From Dehalococcoidia bacterium (GTDB lineage Bacteria > Chloroflexota > Dehalococcoidia > Lucifugimonadales > Australimonadaceae): DNA of 64,000 nt. Of the stretch, positions 1,798-58,424 are shown piece by piece. The stretch is taken from positions 1,460,248 through 1,524,247 of the forward strand of contig OZ241751.1 of the NCBI GenBank assembly GCA_965201135.1, in the 5' to 3' direction. Positions within the stretch are counted from its first letter, which is position 1. Each line of letters opens with the position of its first letter. A model generated the notes under the pieces. It searched no databases and was not told the DNA's origin. It saw nothing but the letters and a program-made list of their open reading frames with translations. The position numbers and the translations under genes were made by a program.

Positions 1798-1912
1798 ACC
1801 CCTGCCCAACTGCGACAAACACCCCTTGCGCGAACGCCCCCTATATCCCTACGATGAACCCGGTCGGTCGAGCAATGCGGGCGCGGATCGGCCGAGGCGG
1901 CTGGAGAGGGGC

Positions 1913-2012
1913 GCTCCATTCTGCCCCATTCCCGCCCCAAACGTCCCCATTTCCGCCCCAAAACAGCCCCGACGGCGCCCTAAAGCGAACCCGGCGCTAG
2001 GAGTAAATGGTG
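1913..2012 (+). repeat. family-D intergenic element; inverted partner at 5878-5985
   Basis: Shares the blocks ctccatt, gccccaaaac.gcccc and gcgc.aggagtaaatgg.gc with the reverse complement of 5878-5985. The 11-nt ggagtaaatgg at 2000-2010 matches ccatttactcc at 5881-5891. Confidence 0.5.
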
Positions 2013-2100
2013 CAAAATGGCGCAAAATGGCGCAGCCCTTAAAGGCGGGGCGCTCACGCAAGGCTGCTCAATAGGAACACGCCGCAAAGGAGGCGCGCTC

Positions 2101-5877: not shown

Positions 5878-5985
5878 GCGCCATTTACTCCTGCGCTCCG
5901 GCGGGTGATGAGGCCAGATTGGGGCCGAAACGGGGCGTTTTGGGGCTGAATGAGGCCGAAATGAGGCCAAATGGAGCCACTGCCG
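5878..5985 (-). repeat. family-D intergenic element (inverted partner of 1913-2012)
   Basis: See 1913-2012. Also contains short internal repeats ggcc(t/c)cat(t). Confidence 0.5.
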
Positions 5986-14074: not shown

Positions 14075-14301
14075 GGCGCGCAAGCGCCGAAATCCCCCTC
14101 TCCCTATAAGGGGAGAGGACGCCGCGAACGCGGCGGGAGAGGGTACTGCGGACGGGGCGCGACGCGCCCCGTCTCCCTCGTCCCCCAGGCGCCTCGTCAT
14201 TCCCGCGAAGCGGGGACCTACCCCGCCCCCCCATGACCGTCATTCCCGCCCTTCTCCGTCATTCTCGCCCCTTCTCCGTCATTCCCGCGTAGGCGGGAAT
14301 C
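14075..14301. repeat. composite hairpin mosaic in inverted order: GC hairpin, family C, family B, then family-A copies
   Basis: ggcgcgcaagcgcc; ccccctctccctataaggggagaggacgccgcgaacgcggcgggagagggtactgcg (C, inverted); gacggggcgcgacgcgccccgtc (B); gtcattcccgcgaagcgggg..; two partial cttctccgtcattc units; gtcattcccgcgtaggcgggaatc. Confidence 0.85.
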
Positions 14302-14330
14302 TCGTATCCGTCGCATCGCATTGCCATCGC

Positions 14331-16190
14331 CTAGAACCTGATGAAGAACCTGTCGAGGGGGACGTCGCCCGGGTTTGGGGGCGCGGGCGCGTCGCCCGCG
14401 CCTTCTGGATTCCGGCCTACGCCGGAATGACGGTTTATGTCGCCATCGTCGGGCGCGTCCGTAGGCGGGGCGCCGCCAGTACCCTCTCCCGCCGCTTCGC
14501 GGCCTCCTCTCCCCTTATAGGGAGAGGGGGATCCGGCGCCCGCGTTCGCGGGCGCGGCGGCGGCGGCGTTGCGCTCCGCGCCGTTGGGGGCGGGATTCCC
14601 GCCTTCGCGGGAATGACGGTCATTATGGGCGGCGCCATTGCCGTCCGCGCCATACCCGGCGCCAACGCCGTCCGTCGCGCGCCTTTTGCCGTCCGGCGCA
14701 TGCCCATCGCCATCGTAGGCGCCGTTGCGCTCCGCGCCGGTGGGGGCGGGGCGCTGGGGGACGGGCACGCCTATGCCGTTCACGCCGGCGGCGCCGTTGC
14801 GCGCGGCGCGGAGGAAGGGCTCGTTGCCCGTCCAGATTTGCAAGGACGGCGGGCGCATAAACGCCATCGCGAGCGCGTCGGCCAGGTCGGGCGAGGGCAG
14901 GCCCTTCGTCCGCATCGCCTTCTTGCTCTCCAACTTCACTTGGCCGGAACTCGACACGTCGTAGCGCAAGGTCAGCAACTGCCCGGCGAGGGCGTCGTCG
15001 TTCGGCAGCGCGATCAGGCGCTCCTCCAGCAGGCGCCGCAACTCCCAGAAGATCTCCGAGCGCAGGTTGCCGAACTGCACCGGATGCGGAGCGCGACCGC
15101 CGAACTGCACGCCGTAGACGGGCGCGCCCAACTCGCGCAACCGGTCAACGACGCCCCCGCCGACGCCCGTCTCGTCGACGAACACCGCCTCGGCGCCCAA
15201 CTCGCGCGCCATCGAAGACGCCTCCCATGACAGCCTCATCGTGTCCATGCCGACGAACGCCTTCATGGCGATCACGCGCTGCCCGCGACGGGCGATCAGC
15301 GCCGACTTGTCGTAGCCGAACCGCGCCACGTCAACCCCGATGTAGACCGGCTGGAGCGCGTCCTCCTCCGCCGTGGGGGCGCCCTCGCCGCTTGGGGCGT
15401 CGTCCGCCATCGCCGCGTCCACCGCCTTCCGCCCCGTGAGCGAGTCGTCCTGCGCGTCCGGGAACTCCGCCAGCACGCCCGCCATAAACAAAGGATGGTC
15501 GCGCCCCGTGTCCGCCTCCCTGTCCGCGATGTCCTCCTCGTTCATCAGCCCGTATATCTCGATGGGCTCGCCCGTGAAAGCCGGCGTGTCGTAGGCGGAT
15601 ATCTTGACGCGCTTGTAGCGGCTGCGGAGCGCGCGGTGCGACTCGTAGAACTCCCCGCTCGTGGAGAGCGCGTTGCCGACCAGCAGCACTTTGGACGGGT
15701 TGAGGCGTTTCAGCGCTTCCTCGAACGCGGGCTTCATGCCGTGCGCCTCGGTGACGACGACCATCATATTGGGCGAGTGGAAGCCCTGCAGGTTCTCCGG
15801 CCTGTTGGTCGAGAAGCCGATGGCGAAGCGGTCGTCGTCGATTTCATACCGGTTGCGGAGCATCTTGCCGGACAACGGGACGCTCGCCGATTTGTAGGCG
15901 ATCCGCATTTCGCGCCAGACGATCTCCTCGATCTGCCGCTGCGTCGGCCCCGTCACCACCACTTTGGCGTGGGGGCGGGTTTCGAGCCACCAGAGGATGG
16001 CGCGGGCGGCTGTCCAGTCTTTGCCGGAGGCGTAGCAGCCGACGACGGAGGTCTTGCGTTCCTGCGCGAGGAGTTCGAGCGTCTCGCGCTGCTTTTCGTA
16101 GGGCTCGCCGGAGTCTGGGAGGACGTCGCGGACGAAGGCGACGGGGTCGTCGCGGTATCGGGCGAGGGGGATGTGGGGCTCTGGGGGCAT
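14331..16190 (-). CDS. phage terminase large subunit-like protein (ATPase plus RNase H-like nuclease) with a repeat-derived C-terminal tail
   Basis: 619 aa. Contains KTSVVGCYASGKDW (Walker A-like), MMVVVTEAHG (Walker B-like) and nuclease-type acidic motifs YIGVDVARFG, VFVDETGVGG, SPDLADALAMAF. Residues after ~450 are Gly/Ala/Pro low complexity translated from hairpin repeats at 14409-14621. Confidence 0.75.
   Translation of the reverse strand: MPPEPHIPLARYRDDPVAFVRDVLPDSGEPYEKQRETLELLAQERKTSVVGCYASGKDWTAARAILWWLETRPHAKVVVTGPTQRQIEEIVWREMRIAYKSASVPLSGKMLRNRYEIDDDRFAIGFSTNRPENLQGFHSPNMMVVVTEAHGMKPAFEEALKRLNPSKVLLVGNALSTSGEFYESHRALRSRYKRVKISAYDTPAFTGEPIEIYGLMNEEDIADREADTGRDHPLFMAGVLAEFPDAQDDSLTGRKAVDAAMADDAPSGEGAPTAEEDALQPVYIGVDVARFGYDKSALIARRGQRVIAMKAFVGMDTMRLSWEASSMARELGAEAVFVDETGVGGGVVDRLRELGAPVYGVQFGGRAPHPVQFGNLRSEIFWELRRLLEERLIALPNDDALAGQLLTLRYDVSSSGQVKLESKKAMRTKGLPSPDLADALAMAFMRPPSLQIWTGNEPFLRAARNGAAGVNGIGVPVPQRPAPTGAERNGAYDGDGHAPDGKRRATDGVGAGYGADGNGAAHNDRHSREGGNPAPNGAERNAAAAAPANAGAGSPSPYKGRGGREAAGEGTGGAPPTDAPDDGDINRHSGVGRNPEGAGDAPAPPNPGDVPLDRFFIRF
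14409..14621. repeat. family A - family C - linker - family A mosaic inside the 3' end of the terminase-like ORF
   Basis: attccggcctacgccggaatgacgg (14409-14433); ccagtaccctctcccgccgcttcgcggcctcctctccccttatagggagagggggatccgg (14477-14536); gattcccgccttcgcgggaatgacggtc (14594-14621). Confidence 0.85.
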
Positions 16191-16533: not shown

Positions 16534-16595
16534 TGGAGGGCCGCCCGCCTACGTGTAGCGGGAACCTACCCCATTCGCCCGACTATGGATACGGG

Positions 16596-16876
16596 ATTCC
16601 CGCCTACGCGGGAATGACGGTCGTGGGGCGCTATCGCGGCGAATGGATTCCCGCCTACGCGGGAATGACAGTCATGGGGCGCTATCGCGGCGAATGGATT
16701 CCCGCCTACGCGGGAATGACGGTCATGGGGCGCTATCGCGGCGAATGGGTTCCCGCCTACGCGGGAATGACGGTCATGGGGCGCTATCGCGGCGAATGGG
16801 TTCCCGCCTACGCGGGAATGACGGTCATGGGGCGCTATCGCGGCGAATGGATTCCCGCCTACGCGGGAATGACGGT
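16596..16876. repeat. tandem array: 5.5 copies of a 51-bp unit (24-bp family-A hairpin plus 27-bp linker)
   Basis: Hairpins start at 16596, 16647, 16698, 16749, 16800 and 16851, an exact 51-bp period. The unit is attcccgcctacgcgggaatgacggtcatggggcgctatcgcggcgaatgg, with 1-3 substitutions between copies. Confidence 0.95.
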
Positions 16877-20690: not shown

Positions 20691-20796
20691 AATCCCGTCG
20701 CGCCCTCCTCGCAGCGCGGCGAGTTTATTCTACGCTACGCGCCCTCCTGCAGGCAGGCGGGATTGGGGGTAGGGATGATGGGGCGGACAGGGAGTA

Positions 20797-21075
20797 GGTT
20801 CCCGCCTACGCGGGAATGACGGTAAGAGGGAGAATGACGGCAAGGGGGCGCGGGCGCGGCGCCTGGGGGTAGGTTCCCGCTTTAGCGGGAATGACGCAGC
20901 GCCTGGGGATTAGGGGAGACGGGGCGCGTTGCGCCCCGTCCGCAGTACCCTCTCCCGCCGCTTTGCGGCGTCCTCTCCCCTCATAGGGAGAGGGGATTCG
21001 GCGCCCGCGTTGGCCGTCCGCGCCGTCCAGCGCGGCGTTGGGGGCGAGATTCCCCCCTGCGCGGGAATGACGGTC
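20797..21075. repeat. hairpin mosaic A, A-B-C-linker-A
   Basis: ggttcccgcctacgcgggaatgac; ggttcccgctttagcgggaatgac; gacggggcgcgttgcgccccgtc; cgcagtaccctctcccgccgctttgcggcgtcctctcccctcatagggagagggg; gattcccccctgcgcgggaatgacggtc. Confidence 0.85.
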
Positions 21076-49814: not shown

Positions 49815-50831
49815 GTGGCGAGCGAAGCGTCCAAAGCCGAGACGTTGGCCTTCGTTCTGCGCGAGGGGTTCCGGCAGGCCGCGCCCAGATGGAGAGGCAA
49901 CATCCTCAACGAAGCGGGGACGCTCTCGTTGCTGATCCTCCCCGTCCTGACGGAACTCGGCTACCCGCCGTCCCACCGCATCCCGCAGCACGGAGCGGGG
50001 CGCAACTTCATCGACGAGGCGTGCTTTCTGCGCGAGGTGGGCAGCAGCGCGGGGCAAGCCGCGCTCATCGTCGAGGCCAAAGAGTACAAAACCGACTTCG
50101 ACTCCGGGCAAGGGCGCTCCGACTCCCCCGACCGCCAACTCCAGCGCTATCTCAAGCAGCACGACGCCAGCGGGCCGGGCACGCTAGGGGTCTTGACCGA
50201 CGGCGTCAAGTGGCGCGTCTACCGCCGGACGAGCAACCCGGCCAACCCCGACCTCGAATTCATCGTCGAGCGCGACTTCAGCGCCGTCGCCCAAGAGGGC
50301 AAGGCCGCCCTCGAGTCGGAGGAAGTCCGCGAACTGCTGGCCGGCTTCTACGCCTTGCTCGCTCGGGAGCGCATCGAGGCGAGGCTCAAGCCGGCGGCCG
50401 CGGCGAAGGCGGCCAACCCCGCCGACTCGCTGTTCGCGGACATCGCCCAGAACAGGCTCCCCGAATACCTCGCTTGCGCGATGCTGAACGACCCCGCCGC
50501 CCTCGTCCAATCCGACCTGACGGAGGACGTGACGCTGTTGGGCGTTCGCAAAGACGCCCACGACACCGATTGGGAAGCCTACGCCTACGCCCACGGGCCC
50601 GCGCTGCGCTCCTCCAGCCCCAGTTTGGCCGGCAAGCGCGTCGTCGTCGCGGCGGTGAACTTCCGCCACGACCCCGCCTACGGACTTCCCCGGTGGGACA
50701 CGGCGGTCTGCGCCCGAACATTCGCAAGCGTCAACGAATCCGGCGCGGCGGTCGTGCTGGCCCGCTGCGCGGCGCCCGACGGCGGCATCGAAGCGCGCCT
50801 CGCCGTCGCCGCAGGCGGGCAGGTCATATGA
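49815..50831 (+). CDS. PD-(D/E)xK nuclease-like protein (HsdR N-terminal-like domain), stand-alone
   Basis: In frame with track ORF 49239..50831, but that frame only leaves the amidohydrolase gene at 49791. First start is GTG 49815 (or TTG 49845). Reads ..LILPVLTELGYPP..NFIDEACFL..AALIVEAKEY..LQRYL..GVLTDGVKWRVYRR, then ~200 aa with no recognisable motif. The stop overlaps the next ATG (ATGA at 50828-50831). Confidence 0.7.
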   Translation: MASEASKAETLAFVLREGFRQAAPRWRGNILNEAGTLSLLILPVLTELGYPPSHRIPQHGAGRNFIDEACFLREVGSSAGQAALIVEAKEYKTDFDSGQGRSDSPDRQLQRYLKQHDASGPGTLGVLTDGVKWRVYRRTSNPANPDLEFIVERDFSAVAQEGKAALESEEVRELLAGFYALLARERIEARLKPAAAAKAANPADSLFADIAQNRLPEYLACAMLNDPAALVQSDLTEDVTLLGVRKDAHDTDWEAYAYAHGPALRSSSPSLAGKRVVVAAVNFRHDPAYGLPRWDTAVCARTFASVNESGAAVVLARCAAPDGGIEARLAVAAGGQVI

Positions 50832-53485
50832 CCGCCGCGTTCGATCCGACGCTGCCCTCCCCGTCCGCCCGCGCCGCCGTCGCCAAACTCCTGCTCCTTC
50901 TCCGCGCCGGCGACGGCGCGCTCACCGCCGACGGCTTGCTGTCTCCTCTGGAGGCCGCTCCGCTCCGCCAGCAGTTCTACAAGGACGTCGCGGAATGGAC
51001 GGGGCGGATGCAGGCGGGGAAGGACTTGCGGGAGCGGCAAACCGTCTTGCGGCACTTGGTGCGCGTGATGTTCGCGTGGATCCTCAAAGAGGAGAGCATC
51101 ATCCCGCAGGAACTGTTCGAGCGCGCCTTCGCCGAAGGCAACCTGCCCGACCTCGACCGCTACCACGAGGACACGCTGGGCTTCCTCTTCCATCGCCGCC
51201 TGAACGTCGAGCCGGACAAGCGCGAGCCTCATCCGATTCGCGCCCTAGACCAGGCGCTGGGGCAGGCGCCGTTCCTCAACGGGTCGCTCTTCGCCGAGCA
51301 CATAGACGACCACGCCCTCGACCTCTCCTCCGCCGCGTACTGGAGCGCGGACGAGCACGAGCCCGGCCTCTTCACGATCCTCTCCCGCTACCACTGGACG
51401 ATGGACGAGCACCGCCCCGGCGAAAGCGAGCAGACGCTCGACCCGGAGTTGCTCAGCAACCTCTTCGAGCGGCTCATCGCGCCCACCGAGAAGGGCGAAG
51501 CCCCCCTCCGCCAGCCGCAGGGAACCTACTACACGCCCGCCGACGTCGCCGACGAAATGGTGAAGGACGCGCTGGCCGCCGCCGTCAAGAACGCCGCGCC
51601 CCCGAATATGAGCGAGGCGCAATTGCTCGCCCTGTTCGACGGCGTCGACGCTCCGCCGCCGGAGTTGACGGACGCCCAGAGGGACGCGCTCGCCGACCGC
51701 GTCGCGGAACTGCGGATCTTCGACCCCGCCGTCGGCTCCGGCGAGTTCCTCTTCAGCGCGCTCCTCGCGCTCCAACGCGCCCTCCGCAACCTCGGGCGGG
51801 ACGCGGACGCATCCCCCGGGCGCGTTATCAAGGAGCAACTCCTCGGGCAGGACATTCACCCGCTCGCCGTCCAAATCGCCAGGCTCCGCCTCTTCATCGC
51901 CATAACCGCCGCCCGCGCGACGGACGAGCCTCTCCCCAACTTGGAGGCGCGCATCGTCTGCGCCGACACCCTCGAGACGGTCGCCAACCACGAGTGGCGC
52001 CCGGACCGGCCCCGGCGGCTCGACGCCGCCGACCCGGAACTGATCGCCGCGCTGACCGCCGTCGCCGAGAACCGCGCCCGCTGGTTCGACGCCTACACGG
52101 AGGACGAGAAGCAGCGCCTTCTGGGGCGCGACGCCGAACTCCGCAACGCTTTGCGATTCCTCCTCCAACGCAAGGGCGAAATCGCAAGCCCCGAACTCGA
52201 ACGGTTCGCGGAGTCCGAGATCTTCGCCGCCACGCCCGACCCGGCCCGCGCCGACGCCCGCCTCCTCTTCTACGAAAACCCCTGGCGCGGCTTCGACGTC
52301 GTCATCGGCAACCCGCCCTACGAGGCGTTGAGCAAGTCAATGACCCCCGAGCGGATCAAAACGCTCGGAGTCGAAACGCTCAAACCGGACGAGCAGTACA
52401 AAGCGTGGATCAAAACGCTCGAAGAGGACAAGCGCTACCAAACCACGAAGATCAAAGACCTGTACCCGCTCTTCTGCGAGGCCGCGCTCGCCCTAGCCAA
52501 CCCGGACGGAGGCGTCGTCACGCTCGTCACGCCGCTCTCCATCGCCTTCGGACAATCGGAAATCGCGATCAGGAAAGTCATAAAGGAGCGGTGCCGCGAG
52601 ATCAGCCTCCGGCACTACAACATCATACCCGACGCGATCTTCAACGGCGCGCCGACGCTCAAGGGTTGGAAGAACCGGCAGCGGGCGACCATCATTTGCG
52701 CCGTCTTAGGGGACGGCGAGACCGCGGTCACGTCAACCGGACTGCAGACGTGGCCAACGGCGGAGCGGGAAGGCGTTTTGGCCCAAAGGCCGGCGACGCG
52801 CCTCGTTCGGCTAGGCGAAAGCGTGGACAAGCGGGTCAGCAAGCAGTGGCTCCGAACGCCCACGGAAGAAGTCGCCCGCCTGTCGCTCGCCATCGCCGAG
52901 CAATCTCGAACCGTCGAAAGTTACCGGCTGAAACCCAACGGCGACGAACCTAAAAATCCCCAGCGGCTCGCTCTTCCCCAAACTGCGGCGTACTTCCTCG
53001 GCTGCATTCCCGAGGGAGCGGTCTCTCCCAGGAGAGAGAACGCCTTCAGCGTCGAGGACGGCGACGCGCTGCGCCTGCTGATGGCGGTTCTGAACGGACA
53101 CGTGGGCTACGCCTGGTGGTCCCAGGTCGGAGACGGATTTCACATCAAATCCGTCTCCGACCTGGGACAGCTCACCGTCCCTGACGCGTGGGTTGCGAAC
53201 CCGGAGCCCGCCGTCGCGCTGGGGGAGCGGCTGATCCAGGCTATGCCGGACTGCGTGACGGAGAAGAAGAACAGCGGCAAGGTCTGGCGGAACGTGAACT
53301 TCCACCTCAAGCCGGACTTGATCGAGGAGTTGGACAAACTCCACATCGCCGCGTTGGGGCTGGCGGAGGAGCCGTTGCTGACGCACCTGCGAATAATGCG
53401 CTCCAGCAGCAGTTGGGACTTCAGCCGCGCCTGGTCGCCGGATAGCGATGGCGGCGAGCCTGACGATGGCGGCGGCGAGGTTTAG
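50828..53485 (+). CDS. Eco57I/type IIG-like gamma-class N6-adenine DNA methyltransferase with a C-terminal target-recognition region
   Basis: 885 aa from ATG 50828. Reads ..APFLNGSLF.., SAM motif RIFDPAVGSGEFLF, catalytic VVIGNPPYEA, and a ~400-aa C-terminal TRD-like half. Confidence 0.85.
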   Translation: MTAAFDPTLPSPSARAAVAKLLLLLRAGDGALTADGLLSPLEAAPLRQQFYKDVAEWTGRMQAGKDLRERQTVLRHLVRVMFAWILKEESIIPQELFERAFAEGNLPDLDRYHEDTLGFLFHRRLNVEPDKREPHPIRALDQALGQAPFLNGSLFAEHIDDHALDLSSAAYWSADEHEPGLFTILSRYHWTMDEHRPGESEQTLDPELLSNLFERLIAPTEKGEAPLRQPQGTYYTPADVADEMVKDALAAAVKNAAPPNMSEAQLLALFDGVDAPPPELTDAQRDALADRVAELRIFDPAVGSGEFLFSALLALQRALRNLGRDADASPGRVIKEQLLGQDIHPLAVQIARLRLFIAITAARATDEPLPNLEARIVCADTLETVANHEWRPDRPRRLDAADPELIAALTAVAENRARWFDAYTEDEKQRLLGRDAELRNALRFLLQRKGEIASPELERFAESEIFAATPDPARADARLLFYENPWRGFDVVIGNPPYEALSKSMTPERIKTLGVETLKPDEQYKAWIKTLEEDKRYQTTKIKDLYPLFCEAALALANPDGGVVTLVTPLSIAFGQSEIAIRKVIKERCREISLRHYNIIPDAIFNGAPTLKGWKNRQRATIICAVLGDGETAVTSTGLQTWPTAEREGVLAQRPATRLVRLGESVDKRVSKQWLRTPTEEVARLSLAIAEQSRTVESYRLKPNGDEPKNPQRLALPQTAAYFLGCIPEGAVSPRRENAFSVEDGDALRLLMAVLNGHVGYAWWSQVGDGFHIKSVSDLGQLTVPDAWVANPEPAVALGERLIQAMPDCVTEKKNSGKVWRNVNFHLKPDLIEELDKLHIAALGLAEEPLLTHLRIMRSSSSWDFSRAWSPDSDGGEPDDGGGEV

Positions 53486-55048: not shown

Positions 55049-56089
55049 TCAGGCGCGCTTGGCGGACGCGAACGCGTCGGCGAGGCGCTTCGCGGCGGCG
55101 CGGGGGTCGTCGGCGAGCGTCACGGCGGCGATAACGCATATGCCGTCCGCCCCGGCGCGGGCGACTTCCGGCGCGTTTTCCGGCGTGACGCCGCCTATCG
55201 CCAGCAGCGGAGGCCCGCCCTCCGGCAAGGCGCTCCGGACGGCGCGCAGCGTCTCCGGCCCGGCGGGGCGGGTGTCCGTCTTCGAGTTGGTGGGGAACAT
55301 TCGCCCGACGGCGACGTAGTCCGCGCCTTGCGCGGCGGAGGCGAGCGCCTCGTCCAGCAGCGCGTTGGACGTTCCGGCGATTTGCCAGGGGCGGAGGGCG
55401 GCGCGGGCGGCGGACAGGGGGAGGTCGCCTTGCCCCAGGTGAACGCCGTCCGCGTCCGCCGCCGCCGCGACGTCGGGGTGGTCGTTGACGATGAAGGCGG
55501 CGCCGGCGCCGGCGCAGAGGGCGCGGAAGTCGCGGGCGAGGGGAAGCCAGCGCCCTTTGGCGTCGTCTTTCACGCGCAGTTGGACGGCGGACGCGCCTCC
55601 GGCGACCGCCTGCTCCGCGACTTGGAGGGGGCTGCGCCCGCCCGTGAGCGCCGGGTCAACGATGACGTAGAGGCCGCGCAGGCGCTCCGCGGCGCGGCGT
55701 CGGGCGGCGGACGCGGCGGCAAGTTCGGCGCGCGCCATCGCGTCGGCGAGGTAGGCGAGATGGGGGCGGTCCGGCTCTTGCGGATTGAATGCCGCCGACG
55801 CATCGGCGAGGGCGCGGAGCGCGCCGATCAAGGCGGCGTAGCGCGCCTCCAGCCCGCCCGGCCACTCGAGGCGCGGGACTTCTTCGATGGCGCGGTCTAT
55901 CGCGGCGAGCGCGTCGGCGGCGAGGGCGTCCAGTCCGAGGCGCCGCGCCGCCTCCAGCCTTGCGAGGGCGCGGTCGCCGTCCGCCTCGCCGGAGCGCGCG
56001 GCCTCGAAGTCGCCACGGACGTAGCGTAGCGCGCTCATCAGCCATTCGCGGGTGAAGTGGGGCGCTTCGGTTGGGGTCGACATTCGCAT
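55049..56089 (-). CDS. thiE: thiamine-phosphate synthase with a ~150-aa N-terminal extension
   Basis: The C-terminal ~200 aa read LYVIVDP..VQLRVKD..FIVNDHPDVA..GVHLGQGD..GTSNA..ADYVAVG..FPT.SK..IGGV... Start ATG at 56089 or 56083. The track start at 56239 lies inside a hairpin mosaic. Confidence 0.8.
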   Translation of the reverse strand: MRMSTPTEAPHFTREWLMSALRYVRGDFEAARSGEADGDRALARLEAARRLGLDALAADALAAIDRAIEEVPRLEWPGGLEARYAALIGALRALADASAAFNPQEPDRPHLAYLADAMARAELAAASAARRRAAERLRGLYVIVDPALTGGRSPLQVAEQAVAGGASAVQLRVKDDAKGRWLPLARDFRALCAGAGAAFIVNDHPDVAAAADADGVHLGQGDLPLSAARAALRPWQIAGTSNALLDEALASAAQGADYVAVGRMFPTNSKTDTRPAGPETLRAVRSALPEGGPPLLAIGGVTPENAPEVARAGADGICVIAAVTLADDPRAAAKRLADAFASAKRA

Positions 56090-56106
56090 AACCTCTGGGC
56101 TTCCGT

Positions 56107-56203
56107 CCGCAGCACCCTCTCCCGTCGCGTTCGCGGCGTCCTCTTCCCTTCTAGGGAGAGGGGGATCCGGCGCTCGCGCGCTGGATTCCCGTCTGCGCGG
56201 GGG
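56107..56203. repeat. family C plus a degenerate family-A hairpin
   Basis: ccgcagcaccctctcccgtcgcgttcgcggcgtcctcttcccttctagggagagggggatccgg ... gattcccgtctgcgcggggg. Confidence 0.75.
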
Positions 56204-56221
56204 CCGGAATTTGGCGAAAAA

Positions 56222-56238
56222 GCGCTCATTCGCGCTCA
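56222..56238. promoter_or_regulatory. two inverted copies (GCGCTCA) of the TGAGCGC heptamer, 10 bp apart
   Basis: aGCGCTCAttcGCGCTCAttc. Confidence 0.5.
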
Positions 56239-56440
56239 TTCGCTTCCCTGCGGGGCGGGGCAGCGCCCTTGATTACGGTCCATCGTAGCAGGGCAGGCGC
56301 GTCCGCGCTACGGGCTCGTGTCATATAATTGGATAGGCGTTCGTTAGGAGAGCGCGGAGGCGAGATTTCCGCCTGCGCGGGAATGCCATTATGGGGCTCG
56401 GAGGTCAAGCGGCAAGGGGGGGAGGGCGGGGCAGGGGCAA

Positions 56441-56523
56441 TGAGCGCTCGTGAGCGCCAAATGAGCGCCGTTTGAGCGCTTTGTGAGCGCTGAATGAGCG
56501 CTTTTGAGCGCCGAATGAGCACG
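56441..56523. promoter_or_regulatory. array of eight direct TGAGCGC heptamers with 10-11 bp phasing (iteron-like)
   Basis: Heptamers start at 56441, 56451, 56462, 56473, 56484, 56495, 56506 and 56517 (the last is TGAGCAC). The 3-4 nt spacers all differ (tcg, caaa, cgtt, tttg, tgaa, tttt, cgaa). Confidence 0.6.
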
Positions 56524-56535
56524 GGTTGGGAGGTA

Positions 56536-56770
56536 GGTTCCCGCCTACGCGGGAATGACGAGGCGCCTGGGGTTAGGGGAGACGGGGCGCTACGCGCCCC
56601 GTCCGCAGCACCCTCTCCCGCCCCTTCGCGGCGTCCTCTCCCCTTATAGGAGACCTTTGCATAATTCCATATTCAGCCCGCAATTCCTCACGATGTTAGG
56701 AGTGAATTGAGGCGCCCCGGCTCTGTAGCGGGGGGTTATGCAAAGGACTCTATAGGGAGAGGGGGATGGC
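56536..56770. repeat. A-B-C mosaic whose family-C terminal hairpin is split by a 101-bp insertion
   Basis: ggttcccgcctacgcgggaatgac; gacggggcgctacgcgccccgtc; cgcagcaccctctcccgccccttcgcggcgtcctctccccttatag | insertion | tatagggagagggggatgg. Confidence 0.85.
56650..56750. mobile_element. 101-bp MITE-like element with 15-bp imperfect TIRs and a 5-bp target-site duplication
   Basis: TIRs are gagacctttgcataa (56650-56664) and ttatgcaaaggactc (56736-56750), a 14/15 match. They are flanked by tatag (56645-56649) and tatag (56751-56755). The interior is AT-rich relative to the host. Confidence 0.7.
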
Positions 56771-56796
56771 AGCGCTTGCGCGCCTCAATGGGGCGG

Positions 56797-57000
56797 GATT
56801 CCCGCCTACGCGGGAATGACGGAACGCTACGCGCCCCGTCCGCAGTACCCTCTCCCGCCGCTTCGCGGCGACCTCTCCCCTTATAGGAGACCTTTGCATA
56901 ATTCCATATTCAGCCCGCAATTCCTGAAAGGCCTCCTTAATGAGCGAATTGGGCGTCACGTCTCTGTATGGGGTTATGCAAGGGTTAGGAAGAGGCGGAT
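56797..57000. repeat. second A-B-C mosaic carrying a diverged copy of the same insertion (tandem segmental duplicate of 56536-56770)
   Basis: gattcccgcctacgcgggaatgac; gacggaacgctacgcgccccgtc; cgcagtaccctctcccgccgcttcgcggcgacctctccccttatag | insertion | degenerate right arm taggaagaggcggatc. Confidence 0.8.
56887..56982. mobile_element. diverged copy of the MITE-like element
   Basis: The first 39 nt are identical to 56650-56688 (gagacctttgcataattccatattcagcccgcaattcct). The right half is diverged but retains ctctgta..ggggttatgcaa. Confidence 0.6.
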
Positions 57001-57038
57001 CTGGCTGGGGGTTAGCCGTCCCCCCCGCCCTGCGTCCC

Positions 57039-58424
57039 CTATCCCCAAACCCCGCGCTTTCGCAGCCATCTGCGGGCGAAGGCGAACGCGGCCCAGGCGA
57101 GCGCCCACGCGAAGACGGAGCGCAGCCCCGCCTTGGACGCGGGCGGCTTGGGCGGCCTCGCGACGAGCATCATCGCCGCCGCCGCGAGAAAGAGCCCCGC
57201 GAACACCGTGAACGCGAGTTCGTAACTATCGCGCGCGTCACGAATCCATCCGGCGGCGAGCGGCCCCACCGGGTTGATGAAGGCGGTCATCAGCCCCATC
57301 TGCCCGCGTATCGCTCCCACCGAACTCCGCCCGAAGTAGTTCGGCACGACGAGCCGCTGGCAGAGCGTCCATCCCCCCTGCGCGACGCCGAACACGACGC
57401 CGAACGCCACCGCCCCGCCGAACGTGGACGCGTTGACGATGATGAGCATCGAGACGAAGTAGATCAGCGCGACGACGGCGATGACGTAGCGAACGTGAAC
57501 GCGGTCCATAACCCATCCCCAGGGAATGGTCGTCACGGCGGAGACCGACGCGAAGGTGAACACGACGAGCACGGAGTTTTCGAAGGCGACGCCTCGCGTT
57601 TGGAAGTGGGGCGCGGCGTGGAGATTCGTCGCCGTCTGCGCGAAGAACATCACCGACATCGTGAGGAGGATGAGCCAGAAGGCGAGCGTCCCCCGCGCCG
57701 CGCCGGAGGTCCAGGTCGACTCCTGGGGGGCGCTCGCCCTCGCGCCCCGGGCGCCGGGCGCCCCGGTCGGCGCGGGCGCGTCGCCGTCGGGAAGCAGGCC
57801 GTAGTCTTCGGGGCGTCGGCGCAGATAGACGAGCGCGGGCGCGGTGATGAGGAGCAGCGCGGAGACGGCGAGAAGCCCGTAGGCCCAGCGCCAACTGAAT
57901 AGAACGATGAGCGCCGCCGCCGCGAGCGGAACGGCCGCTTGTCCGGCGCGCAGGCCGAGCCCGGCGAGCGAGGTGGCGCGCCCGCGCTTGCGGATGAACC
58001 AGTTGGCGATGGCGACGGTGGTCCCGAGTTGCACGCCCGCGATGGCGAACGCCCGCCCCGTTCCGAAGAATATCCACATCTGCCACGGCGCCTGAATGAA
58101 CGCGAGGCCGAGCATGCAGCCGGCGAGGACCATCCCGGAGACCGCCATCAGCGTCCGCGCCCCGTAGCGGTCCATCGCCCTCCCGACGACCGCCGTGAGG
58201 ATGGAGCCCGCGAAACTGCCGATCGTGAACGACGCGGAGATTTCCCAGACTTTCCAGCCCGTCGCCTCGCGGATCGGCTCGACCCACACGCTGAGCACGG
58301 GGCCGTAGAAGACGGACGATGCGAAGGAGACGACGAGCGCGGTTCCGGCTATCGCCCAGCCGTAGTACGCGTCGAACGGCCAGAGCAAGCGCGCGGGCCG
58401 CCGGACGGGCGGATTGGCGGCCAC
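57039..58424 (-). CDS. MFS transporter
   Basis: 461 aa with 12 TM-like segments. Reads ..VVGRAMDRYGAR.. (motif A-like). Confidence 0.88.
   Translation of the reverse strand: MAANPPVRRPARLLWPFDAYYGWAIAGTALVVSFASSVFYGPVLSVWVEPIREATGWKVWEISASFTIGSFAGSILTAVVGRAMDRYGARTLMAVSGMVLAGCMLGLAFIQAPWQMWIFFGTGRAFAIAGVQLGTTVAIANWFIRKRGRATSLAGLGLRAGQAAVPLAAAALIVLFSWRWAYGLLAVSALLLITAPALVYLRRRPEDYGLLPDGDAPAPTGAPGARGARASAPQESTWTSGAARGTLAFWLILLTMSVMFFAQTATNLHAAPHFQTRGVAFENSVLVVFTFASVSAVTTIPWGWVMDRVHVRYVIAVVALIYFVSMLIIVNASTFGGAVAFGVVFGVAQGGWTLCQRLVVPNYFGRSSVGAIRGQMGLMTAFINPVGPLAAGWIRDARDSYELAFTVFAGLFLAAAAMMLVARPPKPPASKAGLRSVFAWALAWAAFAFARRWLRKRGVWG

What the first reader, a model, noticed from the sequence alone, without database searches (positions are those of the whole stretch)
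56222..56523. Eight helically phased TGAGCGC heptamers plus two inverted copies flanking an orphan TATAAT; iteron/centromere-like array in a gene-free region
TGAGCGC occurs eight times in direct orientation with spacings of 10, 11, 11, 11, 11, 11 and 11 bp (56441-56523). The heptamer is conserved while every 3-4 nt spacer differs. That pattern argues for selection on a binding site placed on one face of the helix rather than simple slippage. Because 11 is not a multiple of 3, it cannot encode a peptide repeat. Two inverted copies (GCGCTCA, 10 bp apart) lie at 56222-56238. A perfect TATAAT lies at 56324-56329 between the two sets, with no convincing ORF downstream. Arrays of ~11-bp iterons flanking a promoter are the architecture of type II plasmid centromeres (parC of R1) and of iteron-controlled origins or operators. 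The ~800-bp region between thiE and the MFS gene is otherwise filled with mosaic repeats.
Basis: partly seen in the sequence, partly recalled or inferred. Interest (0 to 1): 0.65.

Follow-up and report, generated by a model that had tools for sequence, protein, structure and literature searches.

The report
Conserved phased heptamer array upstream of thiE
A row of 8-13 copies of TGAGCGC, one per DNA turn, plus 2-3 inverted copies exactly about 202 bases away, is conserved upstream of a thiamine gene in an uncultured bacterial lineage; it looks like a two-part protein docking site around a promoter, not a plasmid centromere or replication origin.

Summary
The array is real. There are seven exact TGAGCGC plus one TGAGCAC at 56441-56522, spaced 10/11 bp, and two inverted copies at 56222-56238. 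TATAAT lies between them.

The region is the upstream region of thiE, which is on the minus strand. The rest of the spacer is filled with Neisseria NTS/dRS3-like mosaic repeats.

Relatives carry the same module with 8, 10, 10 and 13 distal units and 2-3 proximal units. In the most distant carrier, L125, it sits upstream of an isochorismatase-thiE pair. There the DNA between the two sets is only 49% identical to the window. Even so, 12 of 13 heptamers are intact, the gap between the sets is again 202 nt, and an ATGACAC island sits at the same offsets.

Best reading: a bipartite, helically phased binding array for an unidentified oligomerising DNA-binding protein, bracketing the operon promoter. 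Copy number drifts by slippage.

A centromere or iteron-origin reading is not supported. There are no par or rep genes, the context is chromosomal, and the module is missing in sister lineages. A neutral minisatellite, an RNA stem and an invertible promoter remain as weaker rivals. The binder, the promoter direction and any regulon are unknown.

The parts
56441..56522 (+). Distal array: 7 x TGAGCGC plus 1 x TGAGCAC, spaced 10/11 bp. It reads GCGCTCA on the thiE-sense (minus) strand. The extended core is TGAGCRCY, followed by 2-3 variable and mostly A/T bases.
   Evidence: Alleles of 10, 13 and 10 units occur in L148, L117 and L125.
56222..56243 (-). Proximal inverted set: 2 x TGAGCGC on the minus strand, 10 bp apart. 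It has 3 copies in L117, L148, L125 and L123.
56239..56440 (.). Segment between the two sets, 202 nt long. It is 202, 201 and 202 nt in L148, L117 and L125. Its sequence is only 49% identical between the window and L125.
56318..56329 (.). Conserved island: GTGTCATATAAT on +, ATGACAC on -. L125 has GTGTCATAATA (TATTAT on the sense strand). The island lies 115-117 nt from the distal set and 78-79 nt from the proximal set in all four alleles. It is a candidate -10 region, direction unresolved.
   Evidence: It is not called as a full sigma-70 promoter by the scans.
56388..56415 (-). Sigma-70-like match TTGCCG-16-CATAAT facing thiE, next to the distal array. It is kept in L117 and L148 but has no counterpart in L125, so it is lineage-specific at best.
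56365..56384 (.). Degenerate dRS3/NTS-like hairpin (ATTTCCGCCTGCGCGGGAAT) inside the inter-set segment. L125 has an unrelated hairpin (GTCTTAC-GCCCC-GTGAGAC) in the same alignment columns.
56416..56438 (+). G-run (GGGGGGGAGGGCGGGGCAGGGGC) abutting the array. It is present in L117 and L148 and is not conserved in L125.
56533..56560 (-). NTS-like palindromic repeat 10 bp beyond the distal end of the array (56522). It marks where the dispersed mosaic begins. The upstream neighbours of the module differ between relatives beyond this point.
   Evidence: Upstream contexts.
56094..56181 (.). Copy of a dispersed ~80-nt element lying between the proximal set and the thiE start.
55049..56083 (-). thiE (thiamine-phosphate synthase, TMP-TENI domain at residues 140-323, with an uncharacterised ~137-aa N-terminal helical domain). 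This is the gene downstream of the module.

Best explanation
The two heptamer sets form one bipartite cis-acting element in the promoter region of the thiE operon. In some relatives the operon is isochorismatase-thiE.

Proposed mechanism:
- A sequence-specific DNA-binding protein with a footprint of one helical turn or less per subunit occupies the TGAGCRCY sites. This could be a winged-helix regulator of the OmpR/PhoB type, or a ribbon-helix-helix or small helix-turn-helix protein.
- Because the distal sites recur every 10-11 bp, the subunits line up along one face of the helix and bind cooperatively.
- The 2-3 proximal sites are inverted, and their first core lies 208-209 bp (about 20 turns) centre to centre from the last distal core. 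The same oligomer can therefore bridge the two sets and loop out the 202-nt segment that carries the -10-like island. This would control transcription of the operon.
- Unit number (8-13 distal, 2-3 proximal) changes by slipped-strand or unequal exchange without destroying the sites.

Shown: the array, its phasing, the constraint on the cores, the conserved geometry, copy-number variation, and linkage to thiE in four genomic contexts.

Inferred: that the constraint acts at the DNA level, that a protein binds, that a loop forms, and the sign of any regulation.
For: 1. Constraint on the cores:
- Six of the seven heptamer positions are invariant in all 31 distal units of the window, L117 and L148. 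The only variable position is a CpG transition.
- L125 keeps 9 of 10 distal and 3 of 3 proximal heptamers exact. Its thiE differs from the window's at 24% of fourfold-degenerate sites, and the segment between the sets is only 49% identical (94/191).
- At that neutral rate, at most 1 change in 91 core positions has p = 1e-4. For the window's 70 positions p = 1e-3.
- Spacers are not homogenised. Concerted evolution alone therefore does not explain identical cores, and slippage cannot homogenise the inverted set with the distal one.

2. Conserved geometry:
- The gap between the sets is 202, 202, 201 and 202 nt.
- The ATGACAC island lies 115-117 nt and 78-79 nt from the two sets.
- Indels between the window and L125 cancel out.

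3. Phasing is 10 or 11 bp in every one of 37 distal intervals across the four alleles, and 10 bp in all proximal intervals.

4. The module stays attached to the operon while the upstream neighbour changes: MFS, abhydrolase, HIT/HD, B12-binding gene.

5. It is not coding, matches no Rfam family, and is not a copy of the dispersed repeats.

6. Precedents for 11-bp-period multi-site arrays bound cooperatively: Streptomyces PhoP 11-nt direct repeat units, with up to 6 per operator and up to 8 reported (PMC2275107), and R1 parC/ParR (PMC2241845).
Against: - No candidate binding protein is encoded next to the module in any context. tblastn of the L125 neighbour proteins finds no shared regulator, and Pfam finds none in the window's neighbours.
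- The N-terminal domain of ThiE is a helical bundle with no DNA-binding fold match.
- No other phased TGAGCRC pair lies in an intergenic region in about 143 kb of this lineage, so no regulon is visible.
- The module is missing in L116, L118/L119, L149, L126 and L150, so it is dispensable.
- No full sigma-70 promoter is called at the conserved island, and its direction is ambiguous.
- Only one carrier is really divergent (L125, with partial L123). Tandem arrays with this same unit arise in unrelated organisms.
- The proximal set matches a stretch of the distal array including its spacers (14-20 nt exact inverted repeat). An inverted duplication maintained by gene conversion, or an RNA stem, would also give this.
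Confidence: 0.5

Rival explanations
1. Neutral or selfish minisatellite (VNTR). An 11-bp unit (22-bp higher-order unit) is expanded by slippage inside a hypervariable, repeat-filled spacer. It has no dedicated function, and any effect on thiE is incidental.
For: - Copy number differs among close relatives (8, 10, 13), including a 54-nt block in L117 that repeats preceding units.
- The module is absent from sister lineages.
- It is embedded in NTS/dRS3-like mosaic repeats, next to which other short 10-20-bp arrays occur.
- Tandem arrays with the same unit arise in unrelated organisms. L130 has 118 copies, and many GC-rich genomes carry shorter ones.
- Between the three close alleles, the absence of change at six core positions is only weakly significant (p = 0.02-0.04).
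Against: - All seven spacers in the window differ, so there has been no recent expansion there.
- Cores are intact in L125 although the neutral divergence is at least 24% and the intervening DNA is 49% identical.
- The inverted proximal set is also conserved.
- The 202-nt gap and the island offsets are conserved.
- L130, which looks like a plain satellite, has variants in its core positions as well as its spacers.
Confidence: 0.15
2. The element acts at the RNA or single-strand level. Either a sense transcript spanning both sets folds into a long-range stem (distal units paired with the proximal inverted copies) that encloses the leader. Or outward transcripts from the central region both carry UGAGCGC motifs, 8-13 in a non-coding RNA and 2-3 in the mRNA leader, for an RNA-binding protein.
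For: - Minus-strand RNA of 56205-56535 folds with z = -4.7. L125:3040-3400 folds with z = -5.9. In both, a 14-29-bp stem joins the two sets.
- The inverted repeat includes spacers: 14 nt exact in the window and 20 nt exact in L125.
- Apart from ACGCTCA in L125, the core variants are C-to-T changes on the sense strand (GTGCTCA, TGAGTGC). These would give G-U pairs in sense RNA.
- Read outward from the centre, both sets present the same motif (sequence).
Against: - Most distal units have no partner, yet all are conserved.
- Strict 10/11-bp spacing and a fixed 202-nt gap are not needed for an RNA stem or a motif sponge.
- There is no compensatory double change, and no Rfam match.
- In L117 and L148 the upstream gene is divergent, so a transcript covering both sets would need an unseen promoter.
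- The wobble in the central hairpin favours opposite strands in the window and in L125.
Confidence: 0.13
3. Invertible promoter switch. The two sets are the inverted repeats of a ~200-bp invertible segment carrying -10-like elements on both strands, flipped by a recombinase encoded elsewhere.
For: - Exact inverted repeats of 14-20 nt flank a 202-nt segment.
- The island reads TATAAT on one strand in the window and TATTAT on the other strand in L125.
Against: - All five independent assemblies (window/L121, L117, L148, L125, L123) have the same orientation relative to thiE.
- No recombinase gene was found among the neighbours scanned.
- To my knowledge, tandem arrays of 8-13 units are not the usual form of inverton repeats.
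Confidence: 0.05
4. One reading: a plasmid-type centromere (R1 parC-like) or an iteron-controlled origin or operator of a replicon.
For: - 11-bp period direct repeats in two sets around a promoter-like element resemble parC of R1.
- A ParB_N-domain protein exists in the window.
Against: - No parM/parR, parA/parB pair, rep gene, DnaA-box cluster or AT-rich region is found near it.
- The neighbours are metabolic genes, and close ThiE homologues are recorded on 2.9-Mb contigs.
- The sets are inverted, unequal and 202 nt apart.
- The module is absent in sister lineages.
- The ParB_N hit is weak and 28 kb away.
Confidence: 0.03

Closest known systems
PHO-box type operators of OmpR/PhoB-family response regulators (Streptomyces PhoP 11-nt direct repeat units; E. 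coli PhoB pho boxes; ArcA direct repeats)
   Same: Head-to-tail direct repeats with an 11-nt period, made of a conserved part plus less conserved positions. One protein subunit binds per repeat on one face of the helix. Binding is cooperative and the number of repeats varies: up to 6 per complex operator, and up to 8 reported (PMC2275107). The 11-bp spacing of ArcA repeats is from my own knowledge (the paper PMC4173790 was listed but not read).
   Different: The core sequence is unrelated. Here there are 8-13 well-conserved units rather than 2-6 with weak extensions. A second, inverted set lies 202 nt away. No cognate regulator is known, and no other sites of this motif were found in about 143 kb.
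parC centromere/operator of plasmid R1 (ParR-ParM type II partition)
   Same: 11-bp iterons in two sets flanking a promoter region. In R1 they are bound cooperatively, about one ParR dimer per iteron, and the DNA folds back on itself (PMC2241845).
   Different: R1 has 5+5 direct iterons around 39 bp, followed by parM and parR on a plasmid. Here there are 8-13 plus 2-3 inverted units around 202 nt, followed by thiE or isochorismatase-thiE on a chromosome. No par genes are present.
Looping operators with a fixed, helically phased separation (for example araO2-araI, about 210 bp; gal OE-OI). This comparison rests on my own knowledge.
   Same: Two operator elements about 200 bp apart bracket a promoter, and the separation is conserved at close to an integral number of turns (208-209 bp centre to centre).
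   Different: Those operators are single dimer sites, not long phased arrays. Looping here is inferred, not shown.
Neisseria intergenic mosaic elements built from dRS3/NTS hairpin repeats (Ssn nuclease-associated motifs)
   Same: The surrounding spacer is built from palindromes matching CGTCATTCCCGCGMAVGCGGGAATCYRG. The window has 21 hits with at most 3 mismatches and 9 exact ATTCCC-N8-GGGAAT (motif from PMC11893778). Neighbouring DNA is rearranged between relatives.
   Different: The heptamer array is not one of these dispersed units. It is conserved where the mosaic is not. No GIY-YIG gene was seen in the window, by a crude motif test only.
Promoter-associated variable-number tandem repeats (contingency-type loci). 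This comparison rests on my own knowledge.
   Same: A tandem repeat in a promoter region whose copy number differs between close strains (8, 10, 13).
   Different: Units are 10-11 bp with distinct spacers rather than identical short units. No link between copy number and expression has been shown.

Membership tests
Type II plasmid centromere (parC of R1) | Two sets of direct ~11-bp iterons closely flanking the par promoter (5+5 around 39 bp) | tested here: not met
   The 11-bp period is met. However, the sets are 8-13 and 2-3 units, inverted relative to each other, and 201-202 nt apart (R1 architecture from PMC2241845).
Type II plasmid centromere (parC of R1) | parM (actin-like ATPase) and parR (adaptor) genes immediately downstream | tested here: not met
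   Downstream is thiE followed by a Rieske oxygenase. In L125 it is isochorismatase followed by thiE. No ParM/ParR-like domains appear in the genes scanned.
Type II plasmid centromere (parC of R1) | Located on a low-copy plasmid | tested here: not met
   The neighbours are metabolic genes. Close ThiE homologues (P0001, 95%; P0123, identical to the window's) are recorded on 2.9-Mb contigs.
Iteron-controlled replication origin | Iterons next to a rep gene, with DnaA boxes and an AT-rich unwinding region | tested here: not met
   There is no Rep domain nearby. The window has 2 near-DnaA boxes against 2.25 expected, and neither lies in the thiE-MFS spacer. GC is 0.58 or higher throughout the spacer.
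Minisatellite / VNTR | Head-to-tail tandem units | tested here: met
   TRF gives period 11 with 7.6 copies, and period 22 with 86% matches.
Minisatellite / VNTR | Copy-number polymorphism between close relatives | tested here: met
   Distal units number 8, 10 and 13, and proximal units 2 or 3.
Minisatellite / VNTR | Sequence evolves without constraint on particular positions | tested here: not met
   Cores are invariant while spacers vary. Cores and geometry are kept in L125 against 49% identity of the intervening DNA.
OmpR/PhoB-type direct-repeat operator | Direct repeats of 10-11 nt period with conserved and variable parts | tested here: met
   Definition from PMC2275107.
OmpR/PhoB-type direct-repeat operator | Position at or next to the -35 region of a mapped promoter | tested here: inconclusive
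   A sigma-70-like match adjoins the array in the window lineage only and none is found in L125. The conserved -10-like island lies 115-117 nt away. No transcription start site data are available.
OmpR/PhoB-type direct-repeat operator | The same motif upstream of other genes (a regulon) | tested here: not met
   The only other phased pair in about 143 kb lies inside a coding region at about 53738. Whole genomes could not be scanned.
OmpR/PhoB-type direct-repeat operator | Binding by a winged-helix response regulator | not testable with these tools
   No candidate protein has been identified.
NTS/dRS3 mosaic repeats (context of the array, not the array itself) | ATTCCC-N8-GGGAAT palindrome with oriented flanks CGTC...ATCYRG | tested here: met
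   The window has 9 exact dRS3 and 21 NTS matches with at most 3 mismatches. Two of them lie in this spacer, at 56533 and 56794.
NTS/dRS3 mosaic repeats (context of the array, not the array itself) | Is the array itself a dispersed unit of this family? | tested here: not met
   BLAST of the spacer shows that 56182-56352 and 56386-56524 match only the orthologous loci.
Invertible promoter (inverton) | Both orientations of the segment present among genomes or reads | tested here: not met
   Five assemblies all have the same orientation. Reads were not available.

The most novel reading that the evidence does not exclude
This is a previously undescribed chromosomal regulatory architecture in an uncultured, NTS-repeat-rich lineage (probably Chloroflexota, judged only from the nearest named ThiE homologues). 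A long, copy-number-variable array of phased heptamers and a short inverted set are held exactly about 20 helical turns apart. They are bound by a new oligomeric DNA-binding protein, or read as a motif array in divergent RNAs. The element forms a fixed loop over the promoter of a thiamine-salvage operon, and slippage in the array tunes the strength of control.
Probability: 0.2. Interest if true: 0.65.

Novelty: new variant of a known kind. Interest (0 to 1): 0.5.

Why it matters
If the reading holds, this is a clean natural example of a promoter bracketed by a multi-site phased array and an inverted partner set at a conserved loop length, in a lineage with no genetics. It gives a defined DNA bait (TGAGCRCY at an 11-bp period) for finding the binding protein. 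It also shows thiE here controlled without a TPP riboswitch, since none was found. The comparison also shows how a functional array can survive inside a rapidly rearranging NTS/dRS3-type mosaic. If the reading is wrong, the case is a caution that tandem repeats can mimic binding-site arrays.

Tried and rejected
It returned only unrelated, mostly perfect minisatellites from many GC-rich phyla. This gave a base rate but not the source genome.
- The metagenome scan with a spacer-specific pattern found no contig of this lineage. It found only unrelated arrays (L130) and phage contigs (L133, L137).
- The viral scan gave unrelated short arrays.
- Exact look-ups of two window proteins found nothing. 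Orthologous loci were reached through ThiE homologues and cluster members instead.
- Rfam found no TPP riboswitch or other family.
- Coding potential was rejected. The 98-aa ORF has no Pfam hit, its array part changes frame in L117, and most differences in the shared part are non-synonymous.
- A MITE or transposon-end reading was rejected. L116 keeps the middle piece (56246-56300) but lacks both sets, and I saw no terminal inverted repeats at the indel boundaries when reading the aligned sequences.
- Autoregulation by the N-terminal domain of ThiE found no support. There is no Pfam or PDB sequence match. The AlphaFold model (pLDDT 88) is a helical bundle with no Foldseek hit better than E = 2.8.
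- A regulator shared among the genomic contexts was not found.
- A literature search for TGAGCGC as a known site gave only primers and unrelated text.
- Intrinsic curvature was not computed, because I did not have verified wedge parameters. By my own reading of the units listed, six of the seven spacer junctions carry 3-4 consecutive A/T bases in phase, and only two reach four.

Full report
**1. The observation**

Reading 55700-57100 and searching for the heptamer give the following.
- Exact TGAGCGC lies on the + strand at 56441, 56451, 56462, 56473, 56484, 56495 and 56505.
- An eighth unit, TGAGCAC, lies at 56516-56522.
- Spacings are 10, 11, 11, 11, 11, 10, 11.
- Two copies on the minus strand lie at 56222 and 56232, inside an exact 10-bp duplication.
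- TATAAT lies at 56324-56329.

The array is far beyond chance. Chains of four or more identical 5-mers at 9-12 bp occur 0.05 times per shuffled window, and this chain has eight. Cores deviate from consensus at 1 of 56 positions and spacers at 13 of 26 (p = 3e-7). Under a conservative 22-bp higher-order-unit model p is 0.003. The base after each heptamer is always C or T.

**2. Context**

Both flanking genes are on the minus strand.
- thiE is at 55049-56083. It has a TMP-TENI domain and an unannotated ~137-aa N-terminal domain.
- An MFS transporter is at 57039-58424.

The 945-bp spacer is therefore the upstream region of thiE. BLAST of the spacer against the window and two related loci shows that most of it consists of dispersed repeats. 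Segments 56182-56352 and 56386-56524, which hold both heptamer sets and the TATAAT, match only orthologous loci.

The dispersed palindromes match the Neisseria NTS/dRS3 motif CGTCATTCCCGCGMAVGCGGGAATCYRG (PMC11893778). The window has 21 hits with at most 3 mismatches and 9 exact ATTCCC-N8-GGGAAT. No Rfam family, and in particular no TPP riboswitch, is found. The 98-aa ORF across the region is not a gene.

**3. Relatives**

Homologues of ThiE and members of its 90% cluster led to orthologous loci.

| Locus | thiE DNA identity to window | Distal units | Proximal units | Upstream neighbour |
|---|---|---|---|---|
| L121 | 100% | 8 (same array as the window) | 2 | MFS |
| L117 | 94% | 13 | 3 | abhydrolase |
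| L148 | not computed | 10 | 3 | HIT/HD genes |
| L116 | 96% | none | none (keeps only the piece matching 56246-56300) | different genes |
| L118, L119, L149 | L118 95%; others not computed | none | none | different genes |
| L126 | 84% | none | none | different genes |
| L150 | ThiE protein 75% | none | none | different genes |

Six of the seven core positions are invariant in all 31 distal units of the window, L117 and L148. The second position of GCGCTCA varies C/T.

**4. The decisive comparison**

A scan of all fetched loci for phased pairs revealed the module in L125, whose thiE is 89% identical. There it lies upstream of an isochorismatase-family gene that precedes thiE. L123 shows the proximal half of the same arrangement.

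L125 has ten distal units (nine GCGCTCA, one ACGCTCA) and three proximal TGAGCGC.

| Segment | Identity, window vs L125 |
|---|---|
| Distal array | 82% |
| Proximal set | 92% |
| Segment between the sets | 49% (94/191) |
| thiE fourfold-degenerate sites | 76% |

The geometry is nevertheless the same.
- The gap from the last distal core to the first proximal core is 202 nt in the window, L148 and L125, and 201 nt in L117.
- An island, ATGACAC on the sense strand, lies 115-117 nt from the distal set and 78-79 nt from the proximal set in all four.
- The indels between the window and L125 cancel out.
In L125 it reads GTGTCATAATA, which is TATTAT on the sense strand.

At the fourfold-site rate, at most one change in 91 core positions has p = 1e-4.

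Homogenisation within the array cannot be the whole explanation. The spacers are not homogenised, and slippage cannot align an inverted set with the distal one.

**5. What it most likely is**

The constrained features are these:
- an 8-nt site repeated once per helical turn;
- a second, inverted group of the same sites;
- a fixed separation of 208-209 bp centre to centre, about 20 turns;
- a -10-like island at fixed offsets between the two groups.

Together they are best explained by a DNA-level nucleoprotein architecture. In this reading a small sequence-specific protein binds cooperatively along one face of the distal array and bridges to the proximal sites. That would loop out the promoter region of the operon.

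Precedents for 11-bp-period cooperative arrays include Streptomyces PhoP operators (PMC2275107) and ParR on parC (PMC2241845). Unit number changes by slippage, for example the 54-nt extra block in L117.

I give this reading a confidence of 0.5. The protein, the loop and the direction of regulation are all inferred. The sigma-70-like match next to the array in the window is not conserved in L125, so I do not rely on it.

**6. Rival explanations**

- **Neutral minisatellite.** It fits the copy-number variation, the losses, the mosaic setting, and the existence of arrays with the same unit in unrelated organisms. It does not explain the L125 comparison.
- **RNA-level reading.** There is some support. 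Sense-strand folds give z = -4.7 and -5.9, with a long stem joining the two sets. Apart from one ACGCTCA in L125, the core variants are wobble-compatible on the sense strand. However, most distal units have no partner, and strict phasing and gap length are unnecessary for RNA.
- **Invertible promoter.** It fits the inverted repeats. All five assemblies nevertheless share one orientation.
- **Centromere or iteron origin.** This fails its defining tests.

**7. Search for a binder**

No regulator is shared among the four contexts. The conserved N-terminal domain of ThiE was modelled with pLDDT 88. It is a helical bundle with no significant PDB fold match and no Pfam or PDB sequence match. It therefore gives no support to autoregulation.

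**8. Verdict**

The element is a selected, phased binding-site array around a promoter-like island. It is not a centromere or a replication origin.
- It is a new variant of a known kind of element.
- Interest is moderate, because the conserved loop geometry combined with a variable array is unusual and testable. Function is still inferred, from only one truly divergent comparison.

Noticed in passing
window 16594-16876, 14277-14619, 20794-21073, 56533-56560, 56794-56821 and others: The dispersed palindromes of this genome match the Neisseria NTS/dRS3 motif linked to Ssn single-strand nucleases. The window has 21 hits with at most 3 mismatches and 9 exact ATTCCC-N8-GGGAAT, including a 51-bp unit repeated 5.5 times. 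No GIY-YIG gene was seen in the window, by a crude motif test only.
   Followed up: partly
window 55673-56083 (minus strand), ThiE residues 1-137: ThiE carries a conserved ~137-aa N-terminal domain with no Pfam or PDB sequence match. The AlphaFold model (pLDDT 88, six helices) has no Foldseek PDB hit better than E = 2.8. The domain is also present in relatives with only about 45% identity.
   Followed up: partly
window 56084-56239 (minus strand); L118:1190-1300: The reading frame of thiE stays open upstream through the repeat elements (a 396-aa ORF starting at 56239, inside the proximal heptamer set). Gene callers give 382-aa versions in relatives. The ribosome-binding-site spacing favours the 344-aa start at 56083.
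   Followed up: partly
window 1912-2034, 5900-5975, 14237-14288; L116:9603-9690; L122:300-370; L125:4190-4300: Other short arrays of 10-20-bp period lie in spacers, and several sit next to NTS hairpins. Examples are GCCCCATTC, AAATGGCGCA, AATGAGGCC, and NTS half-site units such as ACCGTCATTCC. Many share CATT/AATG. None reaches the length or core conservation of the TGAGCGC array.
   Followed up: partly
L125:3221-3239 versus window 56365-56384: A hairpin occupies the same alignment columns of the inter-set segment in both lineages, but with unrelated sequence (GTCTTAC-GCCCC-GTGAGAC against the dRS3-like ATTTCCGC-CTGC-GCGGGAAT). The wobble pair favours opposite strands in the two lineages.
   Followed up: no
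window 56416-56438 (+): The run GGGGGGGAGGGCGGGGCAGGGGC abuts the array. It has four or more G-tracts with short loops and so is quadruplex-capable by sequence. It is kept in L117 and L148 but not in L125.
   Followed up: no
L133:1-321 and L137:6305-6420: Two related phage contigs (anti-repressor, PAPS reductase, HNH endonuclease) carry 10-29 copies of an 11-bp unit, GCGCTCATTCT, just after an HNH endonuclease gene. A second 11-bp array, TGTGGAAAACT x 4, lies about 3 kb away. This may be a packaging or replication site. It is unrelated to the window's lineage.
   Followed up: partly
L130:1-1303: A metagenome contig carries about 118 copies of TGAGCGCCGAA, which matches one of the window's 11-bp array units. 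It has a 99-bp higher-order period and variants in its core positions as well as its spacers. It serves as a contrast case for an unconstrained satellite.
   Followed up: partly
L138:2130-2200: A viral contig has TGTGAGCGCTCACA twice, which from memory is the core of the symmetric lac operator. Between them are further GTGAGCGCT copies at 10-bp spacing, just upstream of a gene start. This looks like an operator-type array using the same half-site.
   Followed up: no
window 49889-53482 (+): A large Eco57I/MmeI-type restriction-modification gene lies two genes from the array. In L121 the corresponding region is called as two genes (514 and 696 aa).
   Followed up: no
L125 has an unrelated 204-aa protein with weak helix-turn-helix hits about 2 kb upstream of its module. 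It has no homologue in the window.
   Followed up: partly
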